A stretch of DNA of 64,000 nucleotides, taken from assembly GCA_964016885.1 (NCBI GenBank), contig OZ024741.1:283216001-283280000 (forward strand), in the 5' to 3' direction. Positions 1,312-64,000 of this stretch are shown here, piece by piece. A program made the translations under genes and the position numbers. The DNA is from Eledone cirrhosa (Eukaryota). The notes under the pieces are model-generated. The model did not search any database. It worked only from the letters and a program-made list of their open reading frames with translations, and was not told the origin of the DNA. Every line of letters starts with the position of its first letter. Position 1 is the stretch's first letter.

Positions 1312-4300
1312 TATCATCATCATCATCATCAACGTTTAACGTCCGTGTTCCACGCTTGCATGGGTTTGGACGAGGGTAGTCCCACTTGAGGCAAGAGTGA
1401 TTGTCTTGCTCGCATAGGACTGTCTGGCAGGTTTTCTACAGTTGGATGCCCTTCCTAACACCAACCACATTTACAGTGTGGGTCTGGGAGGTTTTTACCG
1501 TGTTGCCTACACGGCCACATTACAGCGTGGACTGTGTGTTTTTTTGTCGTGACACCTACACGATCTCATTTGTTTCGGCCTGGATGGCGCGGCACCAACA
1601 TAACTTTACATAGAACGGGGTGGTGTGGATGGGGTGGGGGTGGTGGCGGGACGGGGTGTATTTTGTTAGAGATGCCTACTGGCAAGGCGGGTCTTCTCTG
1701 TTACTGAGTACCGCCAAAGGTCTCGGTCCAGTGACATTGTCTTGGAGAGGTGTAAGTGTGTGAGGTCGGAGTTTATCAGCTCGTCCCAGGTTTTTCTAGG
1801 TCTGCCTATTCCGTGGCTACCGTCTATCTTTATTGCCCTGCACTTTGTTATACAGCTATCGACTTTCATGCGCATCACGTGTCCATACCAACGTAGCCTT
1901 CTCTCGAGTAAACAACATCTGATCCCTCTTATCTCTAATTTTTTCCTTAGTTCGTTTATGCTTTGCCGTTCACGTATATTACTGTTACACATCCAGCGGA
2001 GCATGCAAGCTTCGTTCCTCTCTAGTCTGCGTATATCCTCTGCACACAATGCCCAAGTCTCACTGCCATGCAACATTGCTGTTCGTATGCAGGCATCGTA
2101 CAACCTGCCTTTCATTTTTAGGGAGAACCCTTTAGCAGCTAATAGTGGTATAAGCTCTCTGAACTTTTTCCAACCAGTTCTGACTCTAGCTACAGTACTT
2201 TCAGAGCACCCTCCCCCACTGCTGATTTTATCGCCCAGGTAACGGAAGCTGTCCACTATTTCTATAGAACCCTCTGCGCAATTGAAAGAGCTAGTATTTT
2301 GTGGGCACTTGCTGCTACTTATTGCACCAGAACACCGGCCACATGTAAAATCTATGTTCTTAGTTAGCTTACCTGTGATCCGACTACATCTTTTATCTTT
2401 TATGCACCCATACTTTGCATTTAGGACATAAAATGGAGTTTCTACCTACGCCTTTCCTACACACCGAGCACGACCATTTCCCAGAAGGGACCGCCGCCTT
2501 GTTTTCTTTCCTACAAACTAGAACTTTGGTCTTAGCCAGGTTAATTTTAAGTCCTTTTGACTCTAGGCCGTGCTTCCATGTTTGGAATTTCTTCTCTAGC
2601 TCGGCCATTGATTCCGCTATGAGTGTCAGGTCATCTGCGTATAGGAGTTCCCATGGGCAGCCTGTCTTGAACTCCTCTGTTATAGCCTGAAGGGCAATAA
2701 TAAATAGTAGGGGGCTGAGAACAGAGCCCTGATGGATGCCAACTTTTACGCTAAACTCTTCACTATATTCGTTGTTAATTCTAACCTTGCTGACTGTTTC
2801 TTTATACATGGCTTGTATAGCCCTCACAAGTCATTCGTCAACGCCTAGTTTTCTAAGAGCCCACCAGATAATGGAGCGGGGGACTCTGTCGAAGGCTTTC
2901 TCCAGGTCGACAAAAGCTAAGTAGAGGGGTTTACCTTTAGCTAGGTACTTCTCCTGTAGTTGTCGTACTATGAAAAGAGCGTCTGTGGTGCTTTTGCCTG
3001 ACACAAACCCGAACTGCATTTCATCTAGGTCAATTCTCTCTCTGATTAGTTGCGCTATTACTTTTTCCGTGACCTTCATGACCTGGTCGATTAATTTAAT
3101 GCCTCTATAGTTACTCCTATCTAGGGCGTCTCCTTTACCCTTATAACAGTTAACGATGATGCTGCTATGCCAGTCCTTCGGAACAACCCCATTCTGTACG
3201 ACTTGGTTAACTATGCGGGTGACCATGGTGTGTCCCACCGTGCCAGATGCCTTCAGCATCTCAGCAACTATTTCCGAAGGCCCAGCCGCCTTACCCGTCT
3301 TCATATCCTTGATTGCCTTACTTATTATACTCCCCTCGACTAACACTGCTGGTCCCTCTATTGGGTCGATATGGGGGAGACTGTCTTTCTCCCATTTATT
3401 CTCCTCATTTAGTAGCCTTTCATAGTGACACTTCCAAGCTACCTTCTTATCAGTGTCGGTGATGGCAAGTATGCCATCATCGTTAAGTACACACTTCTCC
3501 CCGACAATATCACGGTTTTCCTTGACGCATTGCCTAGCAATCCTGAACACCTCACGTTTTTGGTCATCGCGTTGTAGAACATGCTTGAACTTTCTTTCCT
3601 CAGCTTCCCTTCTTGCTAAGTACACTTCTCTCCTAGCTTCCCTCCTGGCCACTTGATAGTCTACTCTACTTCCCCCATCCCGCCATACTTTCCAAGCCCG
3701 CTTTTTGGCCTTAATTGACCCCTCCACCTTACTGTTCCACCACCATGTTACTCTCCTCCTGCCTATAGGTCTGCTCCAGCCACAGATTTCATCTGTCGCC
3801 TTCAGCAGGTTAGCTTTCAGGAATTCCCACTGTTCCTCTATATTGAACGACTCTAATTGCTCTTCCTTACTGTCAAAAGCATCAAGTAATATGCTTTTAA
3901 ATTTATTACTGGCTGTGGGGTCCTTTAGCTTCCATATTTTTCTCCTGAGGATAGTCCTCCTCTGTTGTCGAGTACGTCTTGTCCTGACTATGAGGTCGCT
4001 AACTATGAGTCTATGTTGGGAGGTGCATTCTTCATGGGGGAGGGATTTAGTGTTTACAACAGACACTCTGTCACGTCTTCTGGTAAGGATATAATCTATC
4101 TGACTGGTATGTTCCCCTGATCTATAGGTGATCAAGTGATTGTCTCGTTTTTTGAAGTTAGTGTTACAGATAGTTAGGTTATTTGCGTCACAGAATTCCA
4201 GGATTCTGGAGCCTTCCTCATTTCTAGTACCAAACTCATAGCCTCCATGGATTCCGTCGTAGCCGTCACAATGTTGTCCAACGTGACCATTTAGGTCGCC

Positions 4301-4993
4301 TGCAATAATTATATAGTCACTGTCAGATATTTGGGAGGTAGTTAGCAACAGTGTCTCATAGAATCTGTCTTTTATAGTGCCGGGCAGTCCGGATTGGGGT
4401 GCGTACGCAGATATTACTGTCACCATAGTTCTATTGAGGACAAGTCGTATTTTAATTATTCTGTCGTTCACTCTATTTACGTCTATTATCTTATCTGCCC
4501 ACTTTTCTGCTACCATGATTCCTACTCCACCCAGCCCATCGTCGTTTCCCACCCAGAAAAGCTTATAACATCGTTTTTTACCCTCAATGAATTTAGCAGA
4601 CCCACCCCTCCACCTGGTCTCTTGAATACAACAAACATCGACCTCCTTACGTTCAAGCATTTCTACAACCTCGTTAGCGCGACCCTTTAGGGTGCCTACA
4701 TTTATGGTACCAACTCTGAAGTTTTGGATTGCGTTTGGAGGGTGGGGGTGGTGGGGGGCGGGGGGAGATAGGGTTATGTTAGCCATCCGCGGACGAAACA
4801 AAGAGGAGTGCTCGCATTCTCGTCCACGAGGTGAATTTGACTTTAACTTTGGCATTTTCGCTCTGAGCGTCCAGATTTTTCTCTCCCTTCCACTCTCCAG
4901 GATTCCGCAGTCCGTCCATCCATCCATCCATGCATCATATATCGAAGGCAACCGGGCAAGCGATAGTATAGGCCTCTGGCTTATGATTGGTCC
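1312..4993 (-). mobile_element. Near full-length RTE-clade LINE, copy 1 (APE + RT + PHD-like finger)
   Basis: ORF pieces 2831-4951, 2393-2827 and 1666-2256 give APE (NVGTL, QETRW, GDLNGH, QIDYI, SQHRL), RT (FVDLEKAFDRV, QGSVLSPLLF, LLYADD) and the RTE C-terminus (RLRWYGHV, GRPRKTW). One in-frame stop at about 2831 and one frameshift at about 2395. (ATC)n tail at 1312-1330. Confidence 0.95.
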
Positions 4994-7090: not shown

Positions 7091-10000
7091 TGGTCCAATC
7101 ATAATTCAGCAGCTTATTACACAAAACCACCACCTTGGCTATTCACTCCTTAAGTTTAAACCTGGTTGCCTTTGATATGCTAGATGGACTGTGGAATTCT
7201 GGAGGGTATGAAGAATCTGGACACTCAAATGACAATGTCAAAGATAAAGATAAATTCACCTCATGTGGCCGGACGAAAATGCAAGGATTCCTCGTTATTT
7301 CAGATGCGGATGGCAAACATAACCCCATCTCCCTCACCCCGCCCTACACCTCCAACCCATCCCTTCCACCCACCAAACGAAATCCAAAACTTCAGAGTTG
7401 GTACCATGAATGTAGGCACTTTAAAAGGTCACTCTAACGAGGTTGTAGAGATGCTTGAATGTAAGGAAGTTGATGCTTGTTGCGTCCAAGAGTATAAGTG
7501 GAGGGGTGGGTCTGCTAGATTCATTGTGGGTAAAAATGATGCTATAAACTTTTCTGGGTGGAAAATGAAAATGGGCTGGGTGGAGTAGGAATTATATTAG
7601 CAGAAAAATGGGTAGATAAGGTAATTGACATAAATAGAGTGAACGACAGAATAATCAAAATAAGACTTGTCCTAAATAGAACTACTGTGACAATAATATC
7701 CGCTTACGTACCTCAATCTGGACTGCCTGGCATTATAAAAGACAGATTCTATGAGTCACTAATGCTTACTACCTCCCAACTCACCAACAGTGACTACATA
7801 ATTATTGCTGGCGACCTAAATGGTCATGTTGGACAACATTGTGACGGCTATGACGGAATCCATGGAGGCTATGGGTTTGGTACCAGAAATGAGGAAGGCT
7901 TCAGAATCGTGGAATTCTGTGACGCAAATAACCTAATTATCTGAAACACAAACTTTAAAAAATGAGACAATCACTTGATCACCTATAGATTAGGGGAACA
8001 CGCCAGTCAGATAGATTATATCCTTACCAGAAGATGTGACAAAGTGTCTGTTGAAAACACTAAATCCCTCCCCCGCGAAGAATGCACCTCCCAACATAGC
8101 CTCATAGTCAGGACGAGACATACTCGACAACAGAGGAGGACTACCCTGAGAAGAAGAATATGGAAGTTAAAGGACCCCACAAGCAGTAACAAATTTAAAA
8201 GCATATTACTTGATGCTTTTGACAGTAAGGAAGAGCAATTAGAGACGTACAGTATAGAGGAACAGTGGGAATTCCTGAAAGCTAAGCTGCTGAAGGCGGC
8301 AGATGAAGTCTGTGGCTGGAGCAGGTCTATAGGCAGGAGAAGAGTAACATGGTGGTGGAGCAGTAAGGTGGAAGAGTCAATCAAGGCCAAAAAGCAAGCT
8401 TGGAAAGTATGGTGGGATGGGGAAGTAGAAACACTATCAAGTGGCCAGGAGGGAAGCTAGGAGACAAGTGTACCTTGCAAGAAGGGAAGCAGAGGAAAGA
8501 ATGTTCAAGTATGTTCTACAACGCGAGGACCAAAAACGTGAGGTGTTCAAGATTGCTAGACAATATGTCAAGGAAAACCGTGATATTGTTGGGGAGAAGT
8601 GTGTCCATAATGATGATGGTATACTTTGCCATCACTGATACTGATAAGAAGGTAGCTTGGAAGTGTCACTACGAAAGGCTACTAAATGAGGAGAATAAGT
8701 GGGAAAAAGATAGTCTGCCCCAAATCGATCCAATAGAGGGACCAGCAGTGCAAGTTGAAGGTGGTATAATAAGTAAGGCAATCAAAGATATGAAGACAGG
8801 CAAAGCAGCTGGGTCTTCGGAGATAGTTGCTGAAATGCTTAAAGCATCGGGATCGGTGGGACACACTATGGTCACCCGGATAGTAAACCAAGTCATACAG
8901 AATGGGGTCATACCAAATGACTGGCGTAGCAGCATCATCATTAACTGCTACAAGGGTAAAGGAGATGCCCTAGATAGGGGGAACTATAGAGGCATTAAAT
9001 TTATTGACCAGGTCATGAAGGTCACAGAAAAAGTTATAGTGCAACTAATCAGAGAGAAAATTGATCTAGATGAAATGCAGTTCGGGTTTGTGTCAGATAA
9101 AAGTACCACACATGCTCTTTTCCTTGTACGACAACTACAGGAGAAGTACCTAGCTAAAAGTAAACCCCTATACTTAGCTTTTGTTGACTTGGAGAAAGCC
9201 TTTGACAGAGACCCCGCTCCATTATCTGGTGGGCTCTTAGAAAACTAGGTGTTGATGAATGGCTTGTGAGAGCTATACAAGCCATGTATAAAGAAACAGT
9301 CAGCAAGGTTAGAATTAACAACGAATATAGTGAAGAGTTTAGTGTAAAAGTTGGTGTTCATCAGGGCTCCATCCTTAGCCCCTCCTATTTATTATTGCCC
9401 TTCAGGCTATAACAGAGGAGTTCAAGACCGGCTGCCCATGGGAACTTCTATATGCAGATAATCTAATGCTCATAGCTGAATCAATGGCTGAACTAGAGAA
9501 GAAATTCCAAACTTGGAAGCATGGCCTAGAATCAAAAGGCCTTAAAATTAACTTGTCTAAAACTAAAGTTCTAGTATGTAGGAAGGAAAATAGGGCACTG
9601 GTCCCCTCTGGGAAATGGCCATGCTCAGTGTGTAGGAAAGGAGTAGGCAGAAACTCCATTTTATGTCCCAAATGCAAAGTATGGGTGCATAAAAGATGTA
9701 GTGGGATCACAGGTAAACTAACTAAGAACATAGATTTTATATGTGGCTGGTGCTCAGGTGCAATAAGTAGTAGCAAGTGCCCACAGGATACTAGCTCCTT
9801 CCATTGCCCAGATGGTTCTATAGAAATAGTGGACACCTTCTGTTACCTGGGTGACAAAATCGGCAGTGGTGGAGGGTGCTCTGAAAGTACAGTAGCTAGA
9901 GTCAGAACGAGAGGGAAAAAGTTCAGAGAGCTTATACCGCTGTTGGCCACTAAAGGTTTCTCTCTAAAAATGAAAGACAGGCTGTATGATGCCTGCATAC

Positions 10001-10777
10001 GAACAGCAATGCTACATGGCAGTGAGACATGGGCATTGTGTGCAGAGGATCTGCGCAGACTGGAGAGGAATGAAGCTTGCATGCTCCATTAGATGTGTAA
10101 TAGTAATATACGTGAACGGCAAAGCATAAATGAACTAAGTGAGAAATTAGGAATAAGAGGGATCAGATGCTGTTTACTTGAGAGAAGACTACGTTGGTAT
10201 GGTCACGTGATGTGCATGAAAGATGACAGCTATATAAAAAATTGCAGGGCGATCAAAATAGATGGAAGCTAAGGAGTAAGCAGACCCAGAAAAACCTGGG
10301 ACGATTTGATAAATTCTGACCTTACACACTTACACCTCTCCAAGACAATGTCACTGGACCGAGATCTTTGGTGCTACGCAGTAATATAGAAGACCCGCCT
10401 TGCCTAAGTACAAAGCGAAACCTCAGTAGGCACCTCCTAGCCAAAAATACACCCCCATCCCACTACCCCTACCCCACCCACATCTACACCACCCCTTTCT
10501 CTGTAAAGTTATGTTGGTACCACAACATCCAGTCCTAAATAAATGAGGTCGTGTAGATGTCACGACAAAAAAACACACAGTCCACGCTGTAATGTGGCCG
10601 TGTAGGTAACACGGTAAAAACCTCCCAGTCCACACTGTAAATGTGGTTGGTATTAGGAAGGGCATCCAGCCGTAGAAAACCCGCCAGACAGTCCTATACA
10701 AGCAAGACAGCCAATCTTGCCTCACGTGGGACAATTCCCGTCTAAACCCATGCTAGCGTGGAAGATAGATCTTAAAC

Positions 10778-10812
<35 letters not shown>
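7091..10812 (+). mobile_element. Near full-length RTE-clade LINE, copy 2 (same family as copy 1, more decayed)
   Basis: ORF fragments 7184-10092 align with the copy 1 protein; several frameshifts and stops; (GAT)n tail at about 10778-10812. Confidence 0.95.
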
Positions 10813-10813
<1 letters not shown>

Positions 10814-12032
10814 AAATAGAGATGTATAAAAATGTAATTAGAATTTTGATGATGTGCTAAATTTTTAACATAAAGTAGAAACTCTAGTAGTAGAAACTTT
10901 AAAGTAGAAACATTTTTTAATTAATTTATGAAGCATCAGGAAATTTGAAATTTGAAAACACAGTCACCACAATGCAGATAACTATAATAATAGTTGAATA
11001 AATTAGGTAAAGTGCACCTTGAGATGGAAAAAAATAGATCTCTACCATCTTTCAACACAAATGAATATCAAATACCATCTACCACCACATAAACTTAAAT
11101 ACAAACACAAACAAAATACCTTGGGTGGAGAAGGGGTAGCACATAGCCTGCTAGAAATAATAGGCAAGTCTCCTTCAAACCACATCCTTCACATTTACAA
11201 AAAAAGGACTGTTTGGATAATGCGGTTCTGAAAAAGACAGGCTGCTTACTGTTAGGATGTCTTTAATAATAGGTCTGCTCGTGAAGAGCTAGTGAGGGTC
11301 AAACAATACCAATAACAGCATTCCCTATCATGGTTATTGTCTATATAAAGGACTAAACTTACCAACACTAGCTAACAAGTCATTCATCAGTCATACTCGG
11401 TATCCCCTCATTCTTCTTCTTCCATATATTCCCGAGAGGGTCGTGGAGGAAGAGTACTCAAACACTCCTCCCAGCAGCTCCTGTCAGAAGCAACCGTCTC
11501 TAACTGATCAGGCTAGATCCCCAAGCATGACCAGCCAAGCTCATGGATGTTTAGGAAATAGATATCGGTGCACATGCAACATAATATAAAAGACAAAGAG
11601 TACTGGTGAGTGTGAGTGATAAAGTTTTACTTCATAGAAGTCAAAGGTGTATAATGTAAAGGGTTGTTACCCGATGGCAATAATACCATTCTGAAGTTGG
11701 TAGAAAATGTCTTGGCGCTCTAATCTCAGGCTGGTGAGCTGCATGGTGCTTGGTAACAAAAGGGTCGTCCAGCAAGGATCACCAGCTTGAGATTAGAGCG
11801 CCAAGACATTTTCTACCAACTTCAGAATGGTATTATTGCCATCGGGTAACAACCCTTTACATTATACACCTTTGACTTCTATGAAGTAAAACTTTATCAC
11901 TCACACTCACCAGTACTCTTTGTCTTTTATATTATGTTGCATGTGCACCGATATCTATTTCCTAAAGTGGTGACCCCGACGTGATGAACGGCTGCGTGTT
12001 CGTATCACGTCAGGGTTACCAATATAGCGAGG

Positions 12033-14414
12033 CCCCATCTCCACGATTTTGCATCTTCACTGCAGGGGTGTAAGATTTTTTCTAAGCTAGATTTAGTGCG
12101 AGCCTACCACCAAATTCCGGTCAGGAAGGAGGATATTCCGAAAACTGCAATTACAACCCCTTTCGGATCATTCGAATTTTTGACCATGCCTTTCGGACTC
12201 AGGAACGCCGCTAGCACTTTTCAGCGGTTCATAGACGAGGTCACGCGTGGTCTGGACTTCGTCTATGCTTACATAGACGATATTCTCGTCGCTAGTTCCT
12301 CTCCGGAAGAGCATATGCGCCACATGCTTCTCTTACTTCGGCGACTTCAGGATTACCGCGTTCGCGTGAATCCTGCAAAGTGTGTTTTCGGTTCCACTTC
12401 CCTACATTTTTTAGGCCACCTCATCGACGCCGAAGGTATTAGGCCGCTCCCTGAGCGAGTTCAAGCCATACAGGATTTACCTCCGCCTACTACACTTCAC
12501 CAGTTGCGTCACTTCTTAGGCCTAATCAATTTCTATAGGCGTTTCATTCCTCATTGTGCTAATTGGCTATCTTCCCTTACTGACATTTTAAAAAAACGTC
12601 GTAAGAAGAATGAAGACATTTCCTTGACACAAGGACAGCTTCAGGACTTCCAGTCTGCCAAGACAGCCCTCGCTAGTTCTTCTTTGCTAGCCCACCCGGT
12701 ACCAGAGGCCAAGCTTTCGCTTTGTGTTGATGCATCTGATACCGCTGTGGGAGCAGTTTTACAGCAGTCTTACGCTGAAAGCCAACAACCTTTGGCATTT
12801 TTCTCGAGGGAGTTGAAACCAGCAGAAACGCGTTATAGCACGTTTGGGCGGGAATTATTAGCCATATATCTGTCGGTGAAACATTTCTCTCATATCCTTG
12901 AGGGGAGAAATTTTACGGTTTTTACCGACCACAAACCGTTGACCTTTGCTTTGAGGGCCAAAGCCAACAGATATTCGCCCAGAGAGACAAGGCACCTGGA
13001 CTACGTTTCACAATTTACAAACGATATCCAGCACATTGCCGGCTCGCACAACATAGTTGCAGACGCATTATCTCGTTTGCCAATTAGCTCCATCTCGTCA
13101 TCCCAGGACATCGATTTAGGTCGTTTAGCTGCAGACCAACCTGCACTCCAATCGTTGGACACTCTTTCTACCGAATTTGCGACTTGCATTTTCAAATATC
13201 TGCCCTTGTCCACCACCGACAGGCAGATCCTTTGTGATGTATCCACTGATGCACCACGACCACTTGTTCCTGAGACTCACCGTCGAATTGTGTTCCTGGC
13301 TCTGCACAACATTTCTCATCCAGGATCTGCTGCCACAGTTAAACTTATAACAGCCAGATTCTTCTGGCCTAATATGAGGCGAGACATTGCTGTTTTTTGC
13401 CGTTCCTGTATCGCTTGCCAGAAATCGAAGATCCATAGACACATCTGGACTCCACTTGGTACTTTCACCACTCCAGATGCCCGGTTTCAACACATCCACA
13501 TTGACATCGTTGGACCTTGGCCATTCAGCAGTGGATATTCATACATATTGACGTGTGTCGATCGTTTTTCGAGATGGCCTGAAGCCATCCCTTTACAAGA
13601 CATGACTGCTGAGACTGTAGCACGTGCCCTGGTATCAGGGTGGATTACCCGCTTTGGGGTACCAACTACACTCACCACAGACCGCGGTAGACAATTCGAG
13701 TCCCATCTCTTCTCTGAGCTCACAAAAATAATTGGAGCTCAACGGATTCGGACCACAGCCTATCATCCTGCTTCAAATGGAATGGTGGAACGATTCCACC
13801 GCCAATTAAAGGCCGCTCTTCGCGCCTATCCAGACTCTCAACGTTGGAGCGAGTACCTTCCTATTGTGTTATTAGGAATTCGGTCATCAATAAAGGAGGA
13901 CCTTGGGTTCTCCCCGGCCGAATTAATTTACGGTGCTCCTCTAGCGTTGCCTGGGCAAATGCTTGCCCCTGTTGATCTTGCTTTCCAAGATCCGCTTTCC
14001 TACGTATCCCGTCTGCGTTCTTATTTACAGGACCTGCCGCCGATGGATACGAGGAAGCAAACTGTAAAACATGCGGTCCCGAGGGACATTGCCTCGTGGA
14101 CCCATGTGTTCGTAAGGAACGATGCTGTGAGACCACCCCTCACACAACCATACTCTGGACCCTACCGTGTGTTAGAACGCACTGACAAACATTTCACTGT
14201 AGAGGTTAAGGGGTCCAGAGAGACAATTTCGGTGGATAGACTGAAAAGGGCACACAATGACGCTCGTACACCCGAGCCACAAATACCCCAATCTTTCACC
14301 ATTGTGCATACACCTGCTCCTTCTGCCCCACCTTCACCTACATACAAGACTACGACCCGTTCCGGTCGGAGAGTCCACTGGCCCAAAAAGTTCTGCCAAA
14401 CTATTTTTATATGA
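12033..14414 (+). CDS. pol: 5'-truncated Gypsy pol (RT-RNase H-integrase), frame otherwise open; gag, protease and start codon absent
   Basis: [24 protein letters not shown]; RNase H DAS/RELLA/TDHKPL; integrase HHCC, D-D-E (HIDIVG, TDRG, ERFHR), GPY and a C-terminal TRSGR typical of CsRn1-like elements. The frame extends upstream of the GTG at 12096 to the junction at 12033. Confidence 0.95.
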
Positions 14415-14811
14415 ACTGGCCATTGGAGCCTTATATATATATATATATATATATATAGATTTTTTTTTTTTGCTGTTCTTATTTATTTGATTTATTGTAT
14501 TGCAATGTACCTCTCATGACCATTTCACTGGATGTATATATATGTTTTTCGTTTCCTTTACAATGAACATTTTAAGCTATATTCTTCTCTTTGCCGGTTT
14601 ATAAGTTTGCAATGTAAATTTACCGTTGATAACCGCGCATTTATTGGGAATGCTTATTTCTCTGGTCGCTGGCCTCTTGACCCTTCCAGGTCAACGCATT
14701 CTCAACATCGACCATCAACTTCGGCTGCTATTTCTAGCACTTTGCGCAACTCATTTTTTCTAAAAAAATTTTTTTTACTGTGAATTTAAACACCGAATAC
14801 GCTCACTCAGC

Positions 14812-15041
14812 GAGGCAGCAACAGCAATACAGCAACACAGCAGCAACAGCAATACAGCAGCAACAGCAACAGCAATACAGCAGCAACAGCAATGCAGCAG
14901 CAACAGCAATACAGCAGCAGCAGCAACAGCAATACAGCAGCAACAGCAATACAGCAGCAACAGCAATACAGCAGCAACAGCAATACAGCAGCAACAGCAA
15001 TGCAGCAGCAACAGCAATACAGCAGCAACAGCAACAGCAAC
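14812..15041. repeat. Compound (CAG/CAA/TAC) microsatellite in the Gypsy 3' UTR
   Basis: Repeated agcaacagcaatacagc units between the pol stop and the PPT. Confidence 0.9.
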
Positions 15042-15357
15042 CAAAGCCAGAGAATTTACTTTTGCAGCACTCTTCCTGTGAGAAAATCCATTCGGAGGTT
15101 GGAAATTCACGATATACCACAGAACAGAGACCACCTGCATTCATTCTCTGGAACACACTTTCTTTCCTGCGGTCATGTGATTGCACACCTGTGAACTATA
15201 TTTTGTACATTTGAACTTTGAGCCCTTCCCTTACTTTACTACCTTGATATCTATCATTGATTTTTCCAAACATTCTTTTGTCGTAATTTTCATGCCTGTT
15301 ACAACATTCTCGTCAACTTGCTACATATTTTCATTTCGATTTTTATACACTAAAATT

Positions 15358-15371
15358 CTGGCGGGAGGTTA
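15358..15371 (+). other. Polypurine tract of the Gypsy element
   Basis: ctggcgggaggtta lies immediately before TGTAGCG and parallels the PPT of the second LTR element (ctgggtagggaactaa). Confidence 0.75.
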
Positions 15372-15740
15372 TGTAGCGGTTGTCTCCCTTGTTTTGATTA
15401 GGATCTAGACGGGAAGTGGAACCCTTTCTGCAACTTCCGGTCAGAGCCCTATAAAACTAACAACTTTAAGCTTCCTCTATCTCTTTGCCTTTTCGGCACC
15501 AGGTCAAGAGCCTCACATTTGGCTCTGCCATTAATTTGGCCAACAGGCGCCTGGCCTTAGCCAGGCGTCCTCTGCCAGCCGCGTTTGCCTGGCAATCAAA
15601 ACGGTAACTACTAACTTTGCTTCATTCTAACATCTATTCCTATTGACATGTCAACTATAAAATCTACCGTTAATTAAATATTATACACACAAACCATGTC
15701 TCGTTTTGTTACATACATACAACCCAGTAACCTCGCTATA
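15372..15740 (+). repeat. LTR family 1 (369 bp); exact inverted copy at 16270-16638
   Basis: Starts TGTAGCG and ends CGCTATA (terminal inverted repeat); TATA-like ctataaaa at about 15449; preceded by the PPT and followed by a tRNA-Trp complement. Confidence 0.9.
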
Positions 15741-15741
15741 T

Positions 15742-15795
15742 TGGTAACCCTGACGTGATACGAACACGCAGCCGTTCATCACGTCGGGGTCACCA
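15742..15795. other. Head-to-head junction of two tRNA-Trp(CCA) 3'-end copies including CCA; also at 11968-12021 and 16215-16268
   Basis: TGGTAACCCTGACGTGAT-A-CGAACACGCAGCC (antisense to about tRNA nt 76-45) is joined to GTTC-ATCACGTCGGGGTCACCA. TGGTGACCCCGACGTGAT is the canonical tRNA-Trp PBS. Confidence 0.85.
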
Positions 15796-16981
15796 CTTTA
15801 GGAAATAGATATCGGTGCACATGCAACATAATATAAAAGACAAAGAGTACTGGTGAGTGTGAGTGATAAAGTTTTACTTCATAGAAGTCAAAGGTGTATA
15901 ATGTAAAGGGTTGTTACCCGATGGCAATAATACCATTCTGAAGTTGGTAGAAAATGTCTTGGCGCTCTAATCTCAAGCTGGTGAGCTGCATGGTGCTTGG
16001 TAACAAAAGGGTCGTCCAGCAAGGATCACCAGCTTGAGATTAGAGCGCCAAGACATTTTCTACCAACTTCAGAATGGTATTATTGCCATCGGGTAACAAC
16101 CCTTTACATTATACACCTTTGACTTCTATGAAGTAAAACTTTATCACTCACACTCACCAGTACTCTTTGTCTTTTATATTATGTTGCATGTGCACCGATA
16201 TCTATTTCCTAAAGTGGTGACCCCGACGTGATGAACGGCTGCGTGTTCGTATCACGTCAGGGTTACCAATATAGCGAGGTTACTGGGTTGTATGTATGTA
16301 ACAAAACGAGACATGGTTTGTGTGTATAATATTTAATTAACGGTAGATTTTATAGTTGACATGTCAATAGGAATAGATGTTAGAATGAAGCAAAGTTAGT
16401 AGTTACCGTTTTGATTGCCAGGCAAACGCGGCTGGCAGAGGACGCCTGGCTAAGGCCAGGCGCCTGTTGGCCAAATTAATGGCAGAGCCAAATGTGAGGC
16501 TCTTGACCTGGTGCCGAAAAGGCAAAGAGATAGAGGAAGCTTAAAGTTGTTAGTTTTATAGGGCTCTGACCGGAAGTTGCAGAAAGGGTTCCACTTCCCG
16601 TCTAGATCCTAATCAAAACAAGGGAGACAACCGCTACAGATGTTATCCAACCACCTTGCTCGGGGTCTACATCTGGGTTTCTTGCCAGTTAGTTTTGCCC
16701 ATAATATCTGTCCAACGATTCTTTTCTGAGACATTCTAGCTACATGCCCATAGTATCAGAGCCGTGCTCTCTCAATTCAGAGAAGTAGCAGCTCTACCTG
16801 GAGTGACTCTCTGGTCCCTGAGCTATGCACTTTATCGAGTCATGTTACTCCAAAGACCCTTCGGAGGAATCCCATTTCAGCCGCTTGTATTTGCAGTCGT
16901 ATTCTTTCAGTCATTACCCAAGATTCATGACCATAGTAAATCTAGCTGGATGAACTTGGCTAGAAATACAATAATGAAAAG

Positions 16982-23113: not shown

Positions 23114-25261
23114 TTAACAAGAATTTTCAATTGAGCCATATTTGCATTTAGCAGTGGCTGGTTTTGGTTGACTAATGCAACAACATCGACTGGTCTGTTG
23201 ATTGAGAAGTGTGATGACTTGTTGTTGCTTAAAGTAAAACCAGACAATTAGAGAAAGAGACAAGCTAAGCACAAGTACAGCTAAGGAGTAGTAAAATACA
23301 TGAGAAGGTAACTGACTTTCCGAGGTCACACGAAGTGTGAATTCCAAGATGCAAAACTGTGGAAATATTGTAGCTAAAGCCATAATGTTGGCAGCTGACA
23401 AATGTACCTTTTTGTGAACATAGGACTTCTTGTGAATGAAATACAGGTTGTAACGATCAACACAATATTTGAGTATCATATAGAGACAACCAAATACTGA
23501 AATGATTGGGCAGAGGATGCTGTAGGTGATGACCACAGAGAATAAGCAGAGAAGATATGCATACTGCTGACCAAAGTCAAATTCAACAATGTCATATTTT
23601 CGAAATGCTCTTCTCTTAGCAACTGAACGGATTGTCACATAACGGTACAGGAGTGTAATTAATTCAGAAATTCTTAGGAGTTCAAGACCAGTTCCTGTCA
23701 GTGCTGAAAGTACAACATAGTTCACAAAAAAAACATTATTCGCCATTGTGAAAATGCACTGTATTTTCTTTGTCAAACTTTTTACAGATATCAAAAGTTC
23801 AAATGCTGTTAGGCCCAGTGATGGTAAGATAACCACTGTAAATAAAAGTGTCATGAATAAAGCTATCATGTTTTTTTTCTGTTGAGAACTTTTAGTCCAG
23901 CTCTTTAGGAATGCAACTGTATCTTTTACACATATTGGTAGTAGGTAGACTGTAATTTTGATCAGATAACTTGGTATAATGACAAACAAAAAGGAATTTG
24001 TCCCATTAATCTTTTCCAAATAAGAGGTAACAAGTGCTGGGCTTGTCACAATTAAACAGATGAAAAACAAAATAACTACAGCTAATACTGTTCTTATAAA
24101 TTTAGAGGAACGTGAGATTGACATATTTTGCCAGATAATATCCTCTTTAGTTGGAGCATAACTCACTAACCATTTTTTGGTGTTGAGTGCAGTACTGAAT
24201 TCTGATGTCATTATATGACGTCTGCACTTGGGAAATGTGTGAAAAGAAGAATATATAGACTCTGCTTCTTCCTCTGAAGCTATTTTCACAAATACCATCC
24301 TTAGTGGCTTTTTTTTAAGTTGGTTCATTTCCATGGCTCTCTCTGATAAAATAGTTTCCTCTGCTTCATCAAAATTATGGATATGGTCATTATTACTAAA
24401 GCATGAACTTACATTTTCTGATTCTTGGGAGGCTTCTGTATTTAAACCATTTTTGCAATGTTCTTTCATATGGCGAATGAGTTGAAGTTTCTCATCCAAT
24501 TTCAAGACTTTTCTGGTGTCATACACAGGTACTATCTTTTGAATAACAACACTTGGATATACCTTATTCAAATGATTTTCAATCAATTTATCAAAGTTTC
24601 CAACTAGGTGAATATTACTTATTATTAGGGTCTTTGATTTATTACTTGTCCATAAATGTTGTGAGAAACGAAGAAACAGGGATATGGTAGCTAGTAAATA
24701 CAACAGGGAAACTGTGACATGTAGCCACAGAAGATTTGAGTGAACATTAGCTATGGTTGTACTGCTCAGGCTGCTGGATGTACTGGATTGTCCCCCTATG
24801 TAATTAACAGGTAAGATTATCACAATAGTGAGGAATACTATGAAGAAAAGGTAGCCGATTAAATACCTTTGGAAATGTAAATAAGTCATAGCATCAGCTC
24901 CACATTTTTCTGTGATATCGCTGTCAGTGAGTCGCAGGAAAGCTCGGAACCAGGAAGTAAATTGATCAGTTTGGCGGAGATGCTCAGGAAATGAAGTATC
25001 AGTTGCTGTTGATTCACCACTCAACTGCAAGTCATTGAGAGATGATAAATCTGTCAGAGGTTTAGATTGGGGGATGTTACATGAAATGTCATATTGACGA
25101 TAATTCTTAATTAGTTTTGGTATGAGTGAAAATATTATCAAACAAGCAATCCAAATAACGGAATTCAAAGCAAAATTAAAAGCAATAGAATTATTAACAG
25201 TTTCACTACTTGTACTGTTGTCACAGTTGGACATATTTCCATTAAATGATACAGTCCACAT
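23114..25261 (-). CDS. TMEM63: TMEM63/OSCA (CSC1-like) mechanosensitive cation channel, single coding exon, 715 aa
   Basis: Uninterrupted ATG-to-stop ORF with about 11 hydrophobic segments and family motifs KCGADAMTYLHFQRYL, LPVNY, LLWLH, YAPTKEDIIWQNM, FFVNYVV...GLELLRI, EFDFGQQYA, CPIISVFG and KYCVDRYNLYF. Confidence 0.93.
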   Translation of the reverse strand: MWTVSFNGNMSNCDNSTSSETVNNSIAFNFALNSVIWIACLIIFSLIPKLIKNYRQYDISCNIPQSKPLTDLSSLNDLQLSGESTATDTSFPEHLRQTDQFTSWFRAFLRLTDSDITEKCGADAMTYLHFQRYLIGYLFFIVFLTIVIILPVNYIGGQSSTSSSLSSTTIANVHSNLLWLHVTVSLLYLLATISLFLRFSQHLWTSNKSKTLIISNIHLVGNFDKLIENHLNKVYPSVVIQKIVPVYDTRKVLKLDEKLQLIRHMKEHCKNGLNTEASQESENVSSCFSNNDHIHNFDEAEETILSERAMEMNQLKKKPLRMVFVKIASEEEAESIYSSFHTFPKCRRHIMTSEFSTALNTKKWLVSYAPTKEDIIWQNMSISRSSKFIRTVLAVVILFFICLIVTSPALVTSYLEKINGTNSFLFVIIPSYLIKITVYLLPICVKDTVAFLKSWTKSSQQKKNMIALFMTLLFTVVILPSLGLTAFELLISVKSLTKKIQCIFTMANNVFFVNYVVLSALTGTGLELLRISELITLLYRYVTIRSVAKRRAFRKYDIVEFDFGQQYAYLLCLFSVVITYSILCPIISVFGCLYMILKYCVDRYNLYFIHKKSYVHKKVHLSAANIMALATIFPQFCILEFTLRVTSESQLPSHVFYYSLAVLVLSLSLSLIVWFYFKQQQVITLLNQQTSRCCCISQPKPATAKCKYGSIENSC

Positions 25262-26212
25262 TGTATTTACTGGTGATATCTGTGCAGTTGGCCGAGACAG
25301 AAACGTTCATTCCAAGCTTTTCTTAGTATGATTACAATATTTCTTCAGGATTCTGCTGAGATTTAATATAATAATAGTTTAACTTTCTTTTCTGCTTTCA
25401 AATAACAACAGTGACATTATGTAAACTTTGTATTATAAAACATAATAGATTAGACATGTGATAAAAAGTAAAAGGTTCAGAACTGTGCGACTTAGATTAT
25501 AATAATAATCAGCATGTAATAGAGGTGTGTTGACATCCAGCAGCAGCAGCAGTAGTAGTAGTAGTAGATTTAAGAGATTTCAGCCATACCAATCAGATAC
25601 AATTTTATCTTAAAACAATTAAAGCAAAGTACATATCTATTTGTGAATTTCAATATTAGTCACACATATATTTCGATAGTAAAGTTAATTTCAGCATAGT
25701 AGTGACACTTTTACATTAAGCTAAATCTTTTTGATACCAAATAGCTTGAAACCTAAGGAATGAAAACAGGAGGGGCATAGAGAGAGTGTAGTGAGGGTGA
25801 GGATAGCTGTTAGGGAGTGCTAGTGAAAGGTGAATGGCTGAGGTGAATAGGAGTGAAGATAGTAGCTACTAGGGTGCAATAGTGAGGGTATTTAAGGGCT
25901 TTTGAGGGGGAAGCAGCTAAAGAGTGAATGCTGGAGGAGTCATGGGTGATGGTGAAGATAGCTGCTAGGGAGTATTAATGGAAGCAGGAGTGGACACAGG
26001 GATAAGTCAAATCACATTGTACAGTGTTGGCTGAGTCTTCACCAGCAAAGCATAGCGCCAATCCGCATGGTCCTGTCATTTGTGGCTCTTCCACAGTTTC
26101 CAGCCACTATGGTTTCTCTGTAATTTTTATGCAGCTACTATCTTCCTTATGCAAAGTCTCTATCAGTACTAGTAAAGCCAAGTAATACAAGAAAACTTCA
26201 ATCATATCTAGT

Positions 26213-61012: not shown

Positions 61013-61258
61013 CCACTGGGAGTTGCGACCGTCACAAAGGGACGCAACTCCTATCCGTATCTGCCACTGGGAGTCGCGACCGTCACAAAGGGACGTAACT
61101 CCTATACGTGCTGAGTTACAGCCGTAAGGGGCTACAGTTACCTTCGGGCTTTTCGCCTAGCGTCTGGAGGAGGGTACTGTAGCGGCCCCTTACGGCTGTA
61201 ACTCAGCACGTATAGGAGTTGCGTCCCTTTGTGACGGTCGCGACTCCCAGTGGCAGAT
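61013..61258. repeat. Near-perfect GC-rich hairpin (arms 61059-61142 and 61173-61258) plus a 46-bp direct duplicate (61013-61058)
   Basis: atctgccactgggagtcgcgaccgtcacaaaggg...gctacagt pairs with actgtagc...cccagtggcagat. Confidence 0.92.
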
Positions 61259-64000
61259 CCATGTACTAAATGGTGTTGCATACCCCTGGGGACTATATAT
61301 TTGAGAATGTGAGGTAATTCTCTCTCACTTCCTTCGCCCGCAACAAGAACACCCCAGACCTTGTCAAGAGATGACTCCTGTCTCACTTCCTGCGACGGCA
61401 GCCTAAAGAAACACTTGAACCTTACCAAGAGAAGATTTCTGTTCTTCTCCACACACTCCAGTCTGGGAGTTGTGACCAACTGACCATCAACATGTGGTAA
61501 CAATTATTTATATCAATTTATTTGACTTCTGTGAAGTAAAACCATGTCACAACACTCACCTGCAATTATTGTCATTCTTAAATATATATATATACACTGA
61601 TACTAATATCCTAAAGGTTAACCTTTTACAATTAGAAGTCATGTTTTGCGTACAAAGCACGTCCCTATCTCTTGTCTGTATAGGTATCCTCTTCTAAAGC
61701 AGCCAGATGTCATTCGGAGATCAGTATGTGCGAAGAGATTTCGCTACAAATCTCCCTAAAAATTGCGTTAATGGTACACATGTCTGTGGAATGTTCAGCC
61801 ATATGCACGTTAATTTCATGGGTAGGCTGTCCCATTACTCGAACAAGTGGAACATTCATCGTCGGTTTCGACGGAGGTACATTCCAGTTTCGGATAGATG
61901 GAAGAGTATTTTTTTTTTATTATTTCTTCTATTTTTTTTAATGACAACTGCGATAACTCGGACGCAACAGACACCCAATCAGCAAAAGGAAAATCAGTCG
62001 CTGAAATTGACACAAAATTGACAGAATTATTTAACGACCTGTTAGAAATAGCAGTCAAATATTTCCCCCTCGCTACTTTTTAAAACAGTGATCGTCACGA
62101 CTGTAATGCCATTGACCAACATATGACGTTGTTTTGGTTGCTCAGGTCTGATTTGAAGATAAAAGTAAATAACAGCAATATCTATCTACATTGTAATTCC
62201 ATTTGCTATAAATAGCAGCCAAATTACGAATTGCGAAGGCCAATTAGCTGTGACACATGTAACGTAACCTCTTGTATGTTATCTTCGTAGTAAGAGATTA
62301 ACAGAATGTTTTTCAGTTTTTATTACATTTTTACATCTAGGCTTATAGTTTATGTAAACATGTCTACATACATCAAATTTAACCTATATTTTCTAACATA
62401 CGCTATGTTGTGTATATAAGTGTATTGCTCCTTTTCGGGGTGCAAACGTTCAGAATTTTCTGACATGAAATTTTTTTTGGGGGGAGGGAGCTGCTCTCCC
62501 GCCATTATGCCACTGGTTGTGCATAAATATATATTATTTGATTTTCTCGGCGGAGCTCTTCTGCTAGAGAACGGATCGCAGGTGGCAGATAGCGATGCGG
62601 CCACCAGATATGATGGCTAGTTGCAATATAAGCGGGAAACTGCCGGACCAACAACGGTAAAGTACTAGGGGAGATGGAGCAATGGGTGACACCTGTAGCT
62701 TCCCAGAAAGCTCTCACAACCTAGTGACGTAGCTACGACGAGGCAAGTAAAGGCTGCCTAAAAAGAAGCCTTGTCTTTGCGGGTTTGACAAAATACCAGC
62801 TTCGTGACTGGCGCGAATAAGACTGTACAGCTACCGGAAATAACATCTGTTCTTACCAGTGAAATAAACAACTCTTCTATCTGCTTATCTAACTACCCCA
62901 CCCCAGTGAAACAAACAACCCTTAAGCCACCAAAATAAAACGCCTACGCAGCGGCTAAATATCAAACGATTATTTTTGTATAAATAGAGTGGTTCCAAAC
63001 ACTTTCAGCAGTCGACCTTTAGCAAAGTCAGCTCGCGTATCGTTGTTCCTCTCCCCTGCCACACTTGTCGCTCACATACGCCTTGACCCTCTGTATTGTC
63101 GCTTCATGTATGAAAATAAATAGTGAACGAAACTACATCTCTTGCCTACTCGTCCTTTCAACCTCTTCTTTCGTCTGTTCATCCTTACCGTATGCGGTAA
63201 CAGTTCTTTTAAGGGCTATTCTCAGATCCGATCAGAAGTAGTGACCAGACCGACTAACCACGCCGCTACAAGACCACTGAAACTGAAACCGCACCGTCCG
63301 TTGCGCGGCTTAACGAGGGACGCCTTAAGTAGGGGGGGGGCCTGTTCGAAAAATATATTGCAGTTTCCATTTCATGCTGCAAAAACTAGCTATTGGCCTG
63401 CGTCATGTTCTGGAAGGTGTGGGATGGACACACAATGTTTGCATATCCCGAGACCCCAAAGAAAGTCCGAAAAGGAGCAAACCTATATTATTTGAGGATA
63501 TACAAAATAGAGTAAAAGAGATGCAGTAAATCCTTGGTTTAATGAACCCTGATTTAATGGATTTCGCATTTAGCTGATAAAATAATAACTAAAGTAACAC
63601 TGACCTACAGGCAATCTTCACACATACGCGCGCGCATTTGTGTGTCCGAGTGTGACTATGTGTATCTACGAGCATCTGTCAGTGTTTGCGTGTTTGTCAA
63701 TGTGTGTTTGTGCGTGCATTTATGTCAATGTGTGTCCGTGTCTATTTGTCTGTGTGGGTGTTTATGCGTCTGGTTGAAAATTATTCTAACCGTAGCCAAC
63801 GAAGAAAATGCTAGAGAATTTGACTGTTATTTCTAGAGATTTGAAAACCTACCTCATTGGCAAAACGATTTGTACAAGGGAGATAACTTTCACATTTTTT
63901 TCTCTCTGTGTTATTTCTGTGATCTCTTCCTCTCCGCCCACCTATTCATGAGAGGGTCGTGGGGGAAGAGACCTCAAACACACCTTCCAGCGGGTCCCGT

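What the first reader, a model, noticed from the sequence alone, without database searches (positions are those of the whole stretch)
11550..16638. Inside-out LTR retroelement: composite LTR from two Gypsy families, carrying its pol gene antisense
Seen: on the + strand the order is TSD | A-S-A' PBS tRNA' (10 bp of L') | pol | PPT L tRNA PBS' A-S-A' PBS tRNA' L' | TSD, where L is the 369-bp LTR, A a 188-bp unrelated sequence and S a 41-nt loop. Read on the minus strand, the insert starts at a proper U3 end (TGTAGCG at 16638). It runs L-tRNA-PBS'-A-S'-A' (15797-16638, 842 bp) and is followed after 1 nt by a perfect tRNA-Trp PBS (15778-15795). It ends at 11550 at exactly the same A' terminus, so 11550-12032 is a truncated second copy of this composite LTR (1 mismatch in 483 bp). 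A' has R/U5 character (agtaaa, then a T-rich tract, then the PBS), consistent with the end of a second LTR family. Inference: an aberrant cDNA fusion made a new unit with a family-1 promoter/U3 and family-2 U5/PBS, which went through a further round of reverse transcription and integrase-mediated insertion. A deletion at 12032/12033 then removed gag, the antisense PPT and most of the 3' L. I do not recognise this architecture as a described element class.
Basis: partly seen in the sequence, partly recalled or inferred. Interest (0 to 1): 0.92.

Follow-up and report, generated by a model that had tools for sequence, protein, structure and literature searches.

The report
Folded-back two-family retrotransposon copying error
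This is most likely a single jumping-gene insertion made when reverse transcriptase folded back on its own product and switched between an autonomous retrotransposon and its non-coding parasite; one of its joints recurs at nine other loci, but it is not a new element class.

Summary
The anatomy is as described: a 5,089-bp insert with a GATG target duplication, a 1,267-bp palindrome and a 483-bp direct repeat. The two-family origin holds, with corrections. A+S is antisense R/U5 of an autonomous CsRn1-type Gypsy family (B), and the pol gene is B's too (98-99%). L is the LTR of a non-autonomous ~2.1-kb partner that shares B's 3' UTR and tRNA-Trp primer. The 'tRNA/tRNA' joint is L's native leader fused head-to-head to a PBS. 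That exact joint occurs at 9 other loci with different partners; 6 of the 9 have their own target duplication. The fold-back used a native 8-bp inverted repeat, and the left hairpin still carries the primer's G·T mismatch. The composite LTR was found only here, so there is no evidence of a second round or a propagating family. Best reading: a one-off aberrant cDNA from co-packaged B and L RNAs, integrated normally. No reads confirm the junctions. The interest lies in the recurrent mis-transfer hotspot, in a supposedly dead-end self-primed product reaching the genome, and in a possible hairpin silencing locus.

The parts
11546..11549 (+). Left target-site duplication GATG, inside a high-copy host repeat
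11550..11737 (-). A: family-B U5/R read antisense; 11550 is the natural B U5 attachment end (CCTAAA on the minus strand); G11729 is the ancestral B base; 11730-11737 is one arm of the native 8-bp inverted repeat
11738..11778 (-). S: 41-nt loop, the native B R-region sequence between the two 8-bp arms
11779..11966 (+). A': self-primed copy of A. 11779-11787 is the end of the B minus strand that snapped back; T11787 is mismatched to G11729
11968..11985 (+). tRNA-Trp primer-binding site, exact 18-nt complement of the primer
11983..12032 (-). Family-L leader and last 10 bp of the L LTR, head-to-head with the PBS through 3 shared bases (joint J): L PBS variant, 14-nt tRNA-complementary extension, GTTC
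12032..12033 (.). Blunt inversion joint, no microhomology, L LTR to B pol
12033..14414 (+). Family-B pol, 5'-truncated (no gag, protease or RT N-terminus): RT, RNase H, integrase; 98.2-99.3% identical to 6 of 6 B copies compared
14415..15371 (+). 3' UTR: B-type up to 14609, mostly L-type from 14644 (crossover in the block both families share), CAG-rich tandem repeat, L-type PPT at 15360-15368
15372..15740 (+). L: 369-bp LTR of the non-autonomous family
15741..15796 (+). Joint J: L PBS variant 15742-15759, extension 15760-15773, GTTC, then antisense B PBS 15778-15795
15797..16213 (.). Second A-S-A' hairpin with perfectly matched arms (A15976 is derived)
16214..16638 (-). J' and a full inverted L; 16638 is the natural L U3 attachment end
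16639..16642 (+). Right target-site duplication GATG

Best explanation
A one-off integrant of an aberrant cDNA made in one virus-like particle holding an RNA of autonomous family B and an RNA of its non-autonomous partner L. SHOWN: the parts, their family origins, three unique inversion joints, one B-to-L crossover in the shared UTR, natural U3(L) and U5(B) ends and a 4-bp TSD. INFERRED order: (1) tRNA-Trp primes B; the minus strong-stop DNA snaps back on the native 8-bp repeat (plus a T·G pair) and copies itself through the 18-nt primer, giving A-S-A'-PBS. (2) Its PBS end mis-anneals to the L leader, which holds a hairpin and a degenerate anti-PBS (ATC...GGTCACC), and goes on as an L minus strand: jump to the 3' R, then U3, PPT, UTR, crossing to B RNA and into pol. 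(3) The PPT-primed strand copies L-J-A-S' and folds onto its own copy of A, which gives the perfect palindrome. (4) The pol end is joined bluntly to the displaced original hairpin 10 bp into L. Integrase then inserts the whole. The left block is thus the original hairpin and the right block its copy, so no second round is needed. Steps 1 and 2 are well supported; steps 3 and 4 are the most economical route but are not proven. The insert lacks gag and protease and has no PPT on the strand read from 16638, so it is probably immobile.
For: Every ordinary B LTR in which the 8-bp repeat was matched has G at the 11729 position and A next to the 5' arm, so the left hairpin G/T pair is the fossil primer mismatch. 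A DNA fold of the strand ending at 11787 pairs the 8-bp arms, -11.5 kcal/mol. The exact J joint gives 14 matches, control 0: 3 here and 11 at 9 other loci. Partners are B LTR at 3 loci, another family's LTR at 2, and L's own LTR at 4. Six of the 9 have their own TSD (TGTC, GAAG, AGTT, GCTT, ACAT, CATA). Their L copies are scattered among ordinary ones in an LTR tree. A further integrant joins through the GGTCACC half (L057, TSD ATGT; 1 match). Another is a separate snap-back of B minus strong-stop DNA joined to L, with two U5 ends (L022, TSD ACAA). Of 30 B U5-PBS matches read (of 37; 28 loci): 19 have the normal leader, 1 a variant leader, 3 loci J, 2 loci L-sense internal sequence and 3 loci PBS-to-pol deletions. 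Four of 29 other pol copies are followed by an L-type LTR. The fold-back joint occurs only here.
Against: No read-level confirmation. The 12032/12033 joint has no microhomology and could be a deletion after insertion. Step 4 needs a strand cut and join, or a third RNA; neither is shown. The perfect right arms could equally come from later palindrome correction. In an RNA-parameter duplex scan on a copy with a variant leader (L073), the leader was not among the six best sites. With DNA parameters on another copy it ranked first only narrowly (-9.9 vs -9.3) and not in the exact register, so pairing strength alone does not explain the hotspot. The search scored 40 of 58 candidates, and one assembly may lack a parent copy. 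Many tree branches have weak support.
Confidence: 0.72

Rival explanations
1. One reading: a composite LTR (L-J-A-S'-A') formed first, was transcribed from the L promoter, went through a further round of reverse transcription, and later lost gag, a PPT and most of one L by deletion.
For: End polarity fits (U3 at 16638, U5 at 11550), a perfect PBS follows the composite, and the two blocks are nearly identical. A parent with the G/T pair whose right copy was later corrected would leave the same alleles.
Against: No other copy of the fold-back joint, and no other A-S-A' among the 14 J matches. A parent would already need the composite at both ends, so the extra round explains nothing more.
Confidence: 0.13
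2. Rearrangement after insertion: nested or adjacent ordinary B and L insertions reshuffled by replication template switching or recombination.
For: Both families are abundant (228 and 2,075 first-look candidates). Long palindromes are known to be unstable (recalled). The blunt joint looks like end joining.
Against: One TSD encloses an L U3 end and a B U5 end, and there is no internal TSD. The joints sit at reverse-transcription landmarks (the 18-nt PBS end, the R-region repeat). The same joint recurs in independent integrants with their own TSDs.
Confidence: 0.07
3. Sequencing fold-back chimera or misassembly.
For: Perfect 613-bp arms. Public contigs of two samples show only other alleles at B-LTR variant sites 11691 and 11722 and none of the window's joints in the listed rows.
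Against: A correct 4-bp TSD in a repeat whose empty form is known, natural attachment ends on both sides, a loop set by a native inverted repeat with a primer mismatch kept in one copy, and like joints elsewhere with TSDs. A library artefact would not produce these.
Confidence: 0.05

Closest known systems
CsRn1 clade of Ty3/Gypsy (PMC2582038, passages read)
   Same: Family B has the CX2HX9CX3C Gag motif, a tRNA-Trp PBS, 4-bp TSDs, overlapping gag and pol frames and the order PR-RT-RH-IN.
   Different: The window insert is a rearranged fragment of B fused to L, not a full element. No RT phylogeny was run.
Self-priming of HIV-1 minus strong-stop DNA at the cTAR hairpin (PMC6088434, passages read)
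   Same: An R-region hairpin lets the nascent minus strand prime on itself.
   Different: There the products are called dead ends for strand transfer and were not detected in endogenous reactions. Here one was apparently rescued by running through the primer to a PBS end, and was integrated. L022 is a second case.
Template-switch 'complex' LTR insertions (Sabot and Schulman, PMC1950507, first half of text read)
   Same: A fusion of two templates in one reverse transcription, one integration, flanking TSD.
   Different: Those have an internal LTR shared between two complete cores. This one is inverted, two-family, palindromic and truncated.
Recombination between co-packaged autonomous and non-autonomous elements (PMC6894440, passages read; soybean LTR swapping seen only as a reference title, not held)
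   Same: B and L share a UTR block and exchange 3' ends.
   Different: The passages seen do not describe head-to-head joints at a fixed leader site ('aberrant' had 0 hits in that paper).
Mu killer of maize (PMC3440606, start of abstract only)
   Same: A transposon-derived inverted duplication that can give hairpin RNA against its family.
   Different: Mu killer comes from a DNA transposon, is driven by a flanking gene and is shown to silence. Here the promoter would be the L LTR, and no RNA evidence exists.

Membership tests
CsRn1 clade (family B, source of A, S and pol) | Gag CHCC motif CX2HX9CX3C | tested here: met
   Present in the one B copy translated; definition from PMC2582038
CsRn1 clade (family B, source of A, S and pol) | tRNA-Trp PBS | tested here: met
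   Complement of ARAGORN-called tRNA-Trp genes in L129 and L130
CsRn1 clade (family B, source of A, S and pol) | 4-bp TSD | tested here: met
   7 of 7 B elements
CsRn1 clade (family B, source of A, S and pol) | PR-RT-RH-IN order, no chromodomain or env | tested here: met
   Pfam scan of one copy; the protease hit is weak, E 0.057
CsRn1 clade (family B, source of A, S and pol) | RT phylogeny within the clade | not tested
   No named reference sequences were at hand
Non-autonomous LTR element (family L) | Direct LTRs, PBS, PPT and TSD | tested here: met
   Elements of about 1.6-2.1 kb; matching 4-bp TSD in 5 of 6 ordinary copies; 424 intact leaders
Non-autonomous LTR element (family L) | No coding capacity; shares signals with a helper | tested here: met
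   Longest stop-to-stop frame 169 aa in one copy (not scanned against Pfam); ~490-bp UTR block 84% like B; PBS partly or fully converted to the tRNA complement in about 22 of the first 100 of 501 matches (hand count)
Canonical LTR provirus (window insert) | Integrase ends and TSD | tested here: met
Canonical LTR provirus (window insert) | Two full direct LTRs with PBS, sense gag-pol and PPT between them | tested here: not met
   The second block is cut to 483 bp, pol is inverted, and there is no gag or PPT on that strand
Propagating composite-LTR family | Two or more insertions of the same unit with different TSDs | tested here: not met
   Fold-back joint only in the window (40 of 58 candidates scored); none among the 14 J matches
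Sabot-Schulman complex insertion | Single flanking TSD | tested here: met
Sabot-Schulman complex insertion | Internal LTR between two complete cores | tested here: not met
   One truncated core and inverted blocks
DIRS-type elements with inverted terminal repeats (features recalled) | Tyrosine recombinase and no TSD | tested here: not met
   rve integrase and a 4-bp TSD
Mu killer-like silencing locus | Hairpin transcript, small RNAs and silencing in trans | not testable with these tools
   No RNA run was listed

The most novel reading that the evidence does not exclude
The L leader is an evolved primer decoy. It is a captured tRNA read-through plus a short anti-PBS hairpin that pairs with the PBS of helper RNAs or with helper plus-strand ends, from more than one CsRn1-type family, to gain co-packaging or to divert the helper's strand transfer. 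Its by-products are integrated head-to-head and palindromic copies such as this one. Driven by the L promoter, these would make long hairpin and antisense-pol RNA and act as self-made silencing loci against both parasite and helper.
Probability: 0.2. Interest if true: 0.78.

Novelty: new variant of a known kind. Interest (0 to 1): 0.52.

Why it matters
It is a genomic record of several reverse-transcription errors known mainly from in vitro retrovirus work: self-primed strong-stop DNA, mis-directed PBS transfer and primer read-through. It shows that such products can be integrated and inherited. The nucleotide-exact joint at 10 loci (against 424 intact leaders) points to a sequence-programmed interaction between a non-autonomous element and its helpers, which can be tested in vitro. 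If the palindrome is transcribed, it offers a route by which LTR families create their own silencing triggers. It does not define a new mobile class.

Tried and rejected
ARAGORN on the window and Rfam on the region: no tRNA gene, one chance hit.

Public runs: no RNA holder listed. Contigs X1-X4 (two samples, one study) cover the unique left flank in X1-X3. The rows shown contain only ordinary B sequence at 12033 and other alleles at 11691 and 11722, with most rows hidden. This neither confirms nor refutes; those animals may lack the insertion.

The idea that J is a fresh double tRNA copy was rejected. The idea that pol is L's own was rejected: 24 of 29 other pol copies carry a B-type LTR, 4 an L-type LTR and 1 neither. 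The idea that L uses a different tRNA is unlikely, because converted PBS forms exist.

The first four hits were not tRNA genes; genes were found in L129 and L130. The RNA fold of an L leader was not significant (z -1.5). The duplex scans were weak. No TSD was determined for L059, L064 or L096.

Earlier findings: none. The literature searches listed no paper whose title or abstract start describes this architecture or joint; one search returned 0. Most subscription papers are not searched, and no supplements were read.
Full report
Observation. The window lies on a chromosome-scale contig of a 3.0-Gb genome. The host target is a repeat whose unbroken form with a single GATG occurs 6,774 times (one paralogue aligned), so the duplication is real.

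Where the parts come from. A matches many places at 95-98% (43 matches, 40 of 228 candidates scored), often in direct pairs about 5.65 kb apart. Seven such pairs are ordinary ~6.1-kb elements with ~430-bp LTRs (TGTAGTAAG...TTCCTAAA), a tRNA-Trp PBS and 4-bp TSDs. I call this family B. One copy, read as it stands, has the Gag CX2HX9CX3C motif and PR-RT-RH-IN in an overlapping frame, the marks of the CsRn1 clade in PMC2582038 (passages). A+S is B LTR positions 428 to 196 read antisense. The window's pol is 98.2-99.3% identical to 6 of 6 B copies, and 24 of 29 other pol copies lead to a B-type LTR. So pol is B's, and it is sense to the A'-PBS in front of it. L is the LTR of a more abundant ~2.1-kb family without long frames. 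It shares a UTR block with B and uses the same primer. The window's UTR switches from B to L between 14609 and 14644, with three B-type sites later.

The tRNA joint. Ordinary L elements carry, after the LTR, a PBS variant, 14 more tRNA-complementary bases and GTTCATC, followed by GCTATAAGTGGTCACC (424 exact copies). The genomic tRNA-Trp has A at the position after the 18-nt primer stretch, where the L leader, read in tRNA sense, has T. That fits an old read-through of m1A58 with misincorporation. m1A58 as the stop and misincorporation at m1A are in PMC8599865 and PMC4787781 (passages); the application to L is my inference. In the window the leader breaks after GTTCATC and continues as an antisense PBS, with 3 shared bases. 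This exact joint has 14 matches (control 0): 3 here and 11 at 9 other loci. The partner is a B LTR at L020, L023 and L024, another family's LTR at L058 and L064, and L itself at L059, L060, L095 and L096. Six of the 9 have their own 4-bp TSD. Their L copies are spread through a tree of L LTRs, with mixed support. So the joint is made repeatedly and is not inherited from one chimera. The leader can fold GTTC-ATC onto its own PBS, which explains the L-L cases as snap-backs. ATC...GGTCACC resembles the anti-PBS, and one integrant joins through the GGTCACC half (L057). Against a simple pairing explanation, the duplex scans ranked the site weakly. Mis-transfer is common in B generally: 8 of 28 loci read have an abnormal sequence after the PBS (30 of 37 matches read).

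The fold-back. Ordinary B LTRs carry GCTGGTGA...TCACCAGC around a loop of about 40 nt. In all those matched, the base giving 11729 is G and the base flanking the other arm gives T on the minus strand. The left hairpin has G11729 opposite T11787. This is what results if the minus strand ended ...TCACCAGCT, paired on itself with a terminal T·G and was extended. The right hairpin has the derived A. This is the analogue of cTAR self-priming, described as a dead end in PMC6088434 (passages). L022 is an independent snap-back from LTR position 154, joined to L, with two U5 ends and a TSD. The window's own S|A' joint matched in full only in its two copies.

Mechanism. Shown: parts, joints, ends and TSD. 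Inferred: B priming and snap-back through the 18-nt primer; mis-transfer of that PBS end to the L leader; normal L first jump, PPT, UTR crossover and pol; a PPT-primed copy that folds on its own A and gives the perfect palindrome; a blunt join of the pol end to the displaced original hairpin 10 bp into L; and integration by the L U3 and B U5 ends. Two RNAs suffice if the displaced strand is cut and rejoined; otherwise a third is needed. The blunt joint may instead be a later deletion. Two other PBS-to-pol deletions and this joint fall within about 130 bp of B pol, which hints at a common stall during reverse transcription. I give this reading 0.72, the two-round model 0.13, later rearrangement 0.07 and artefact 0.05.

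Results against or missing. Public contigs did not show the window's joints or its B-LTR alleles, so the structure rests on one assembly. No RNA run was listed. The genome DNA searches score only the best candidates, so absence of a second composite is strong but not complete; the exact-pattern count is whole, but misses copies mutated in those 19 bases.

Comparison and novelty. It works like known template-switch products: complex insertions (PMC1950507, first half read) and recombinants of co-packaged elements (PMC6894440, passages). It fails their layout test and fails the test for a propagating family. Ten searches of the open library listed nothing describing this inverted two-family form or a fixed leader hotspot; the coverage is partial. 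Both L copies could drive transcripts that form a stem of roughly 500 bp plus antisense pol, like Mu killer (PMC3440606, abstract start), but this is untested. Verdict: real, young, probably immobile, a new variant of a known kind. The recurrent joint is the more general finding. Interest 0.52.

Noticed in passing
L131-L138 (8 of 34 matches): The 3' ~35-40 nt of tRNA-Trp with CCA, joined to the U5 end of several CsRn1-like LTR families and stopping near the anticodon loop: integrated primer read-through past position 58. All 8 non-gene hits read were of this kind (3 of them also seen).
   Followed up: partly
L family, 501 matches: About 78 of the first 100 listed keep two mismatches to the primer in their PBS, 11 are fully converted and 11 half converted (hand count); fewer conversions than an even split would give.
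   Followed up: partly
L068:1033-3429 and L066:7229-9633: L elements whose 3' LTR folds back into an inverted LTR, giving two U3 ends and a TSD (GACA, TGTT).
   Followed up: partly
L023, L024, L065 (C1, 204.38-204.44 Mb): Three different B/L or B chimeric insertions within 55 kb, in similar target sequence.
   Followed up: no
window 61013-61615: A 438-bp LTR of a related family (TGTAG...CCTAAA) preceded by a PPT and an inverted, partly duplicated copy of its own U3 start: probably another aberrant product.
   Followed up: partly
window 1313-4755 and 7356-10798: Inverted pair of LINE copies, 86-93% alike, with endonuclease and RT frames.
   Followed up: no
window 23114-25306, minus strand: An uninterrupted 730-codon frame with RSN1_TM, PHM7_cyt and RSN1_7TM domains; OSCA/TMEM63-like channel by recalled naming, possibly intronless or a retrocopy.
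   Followed up: no
L018 (reverse strand 85-634): A 550-bp LTR pair of a third family enclosing a B element; its LTR type is the partner in the L058 joint.
   Followed up: partly
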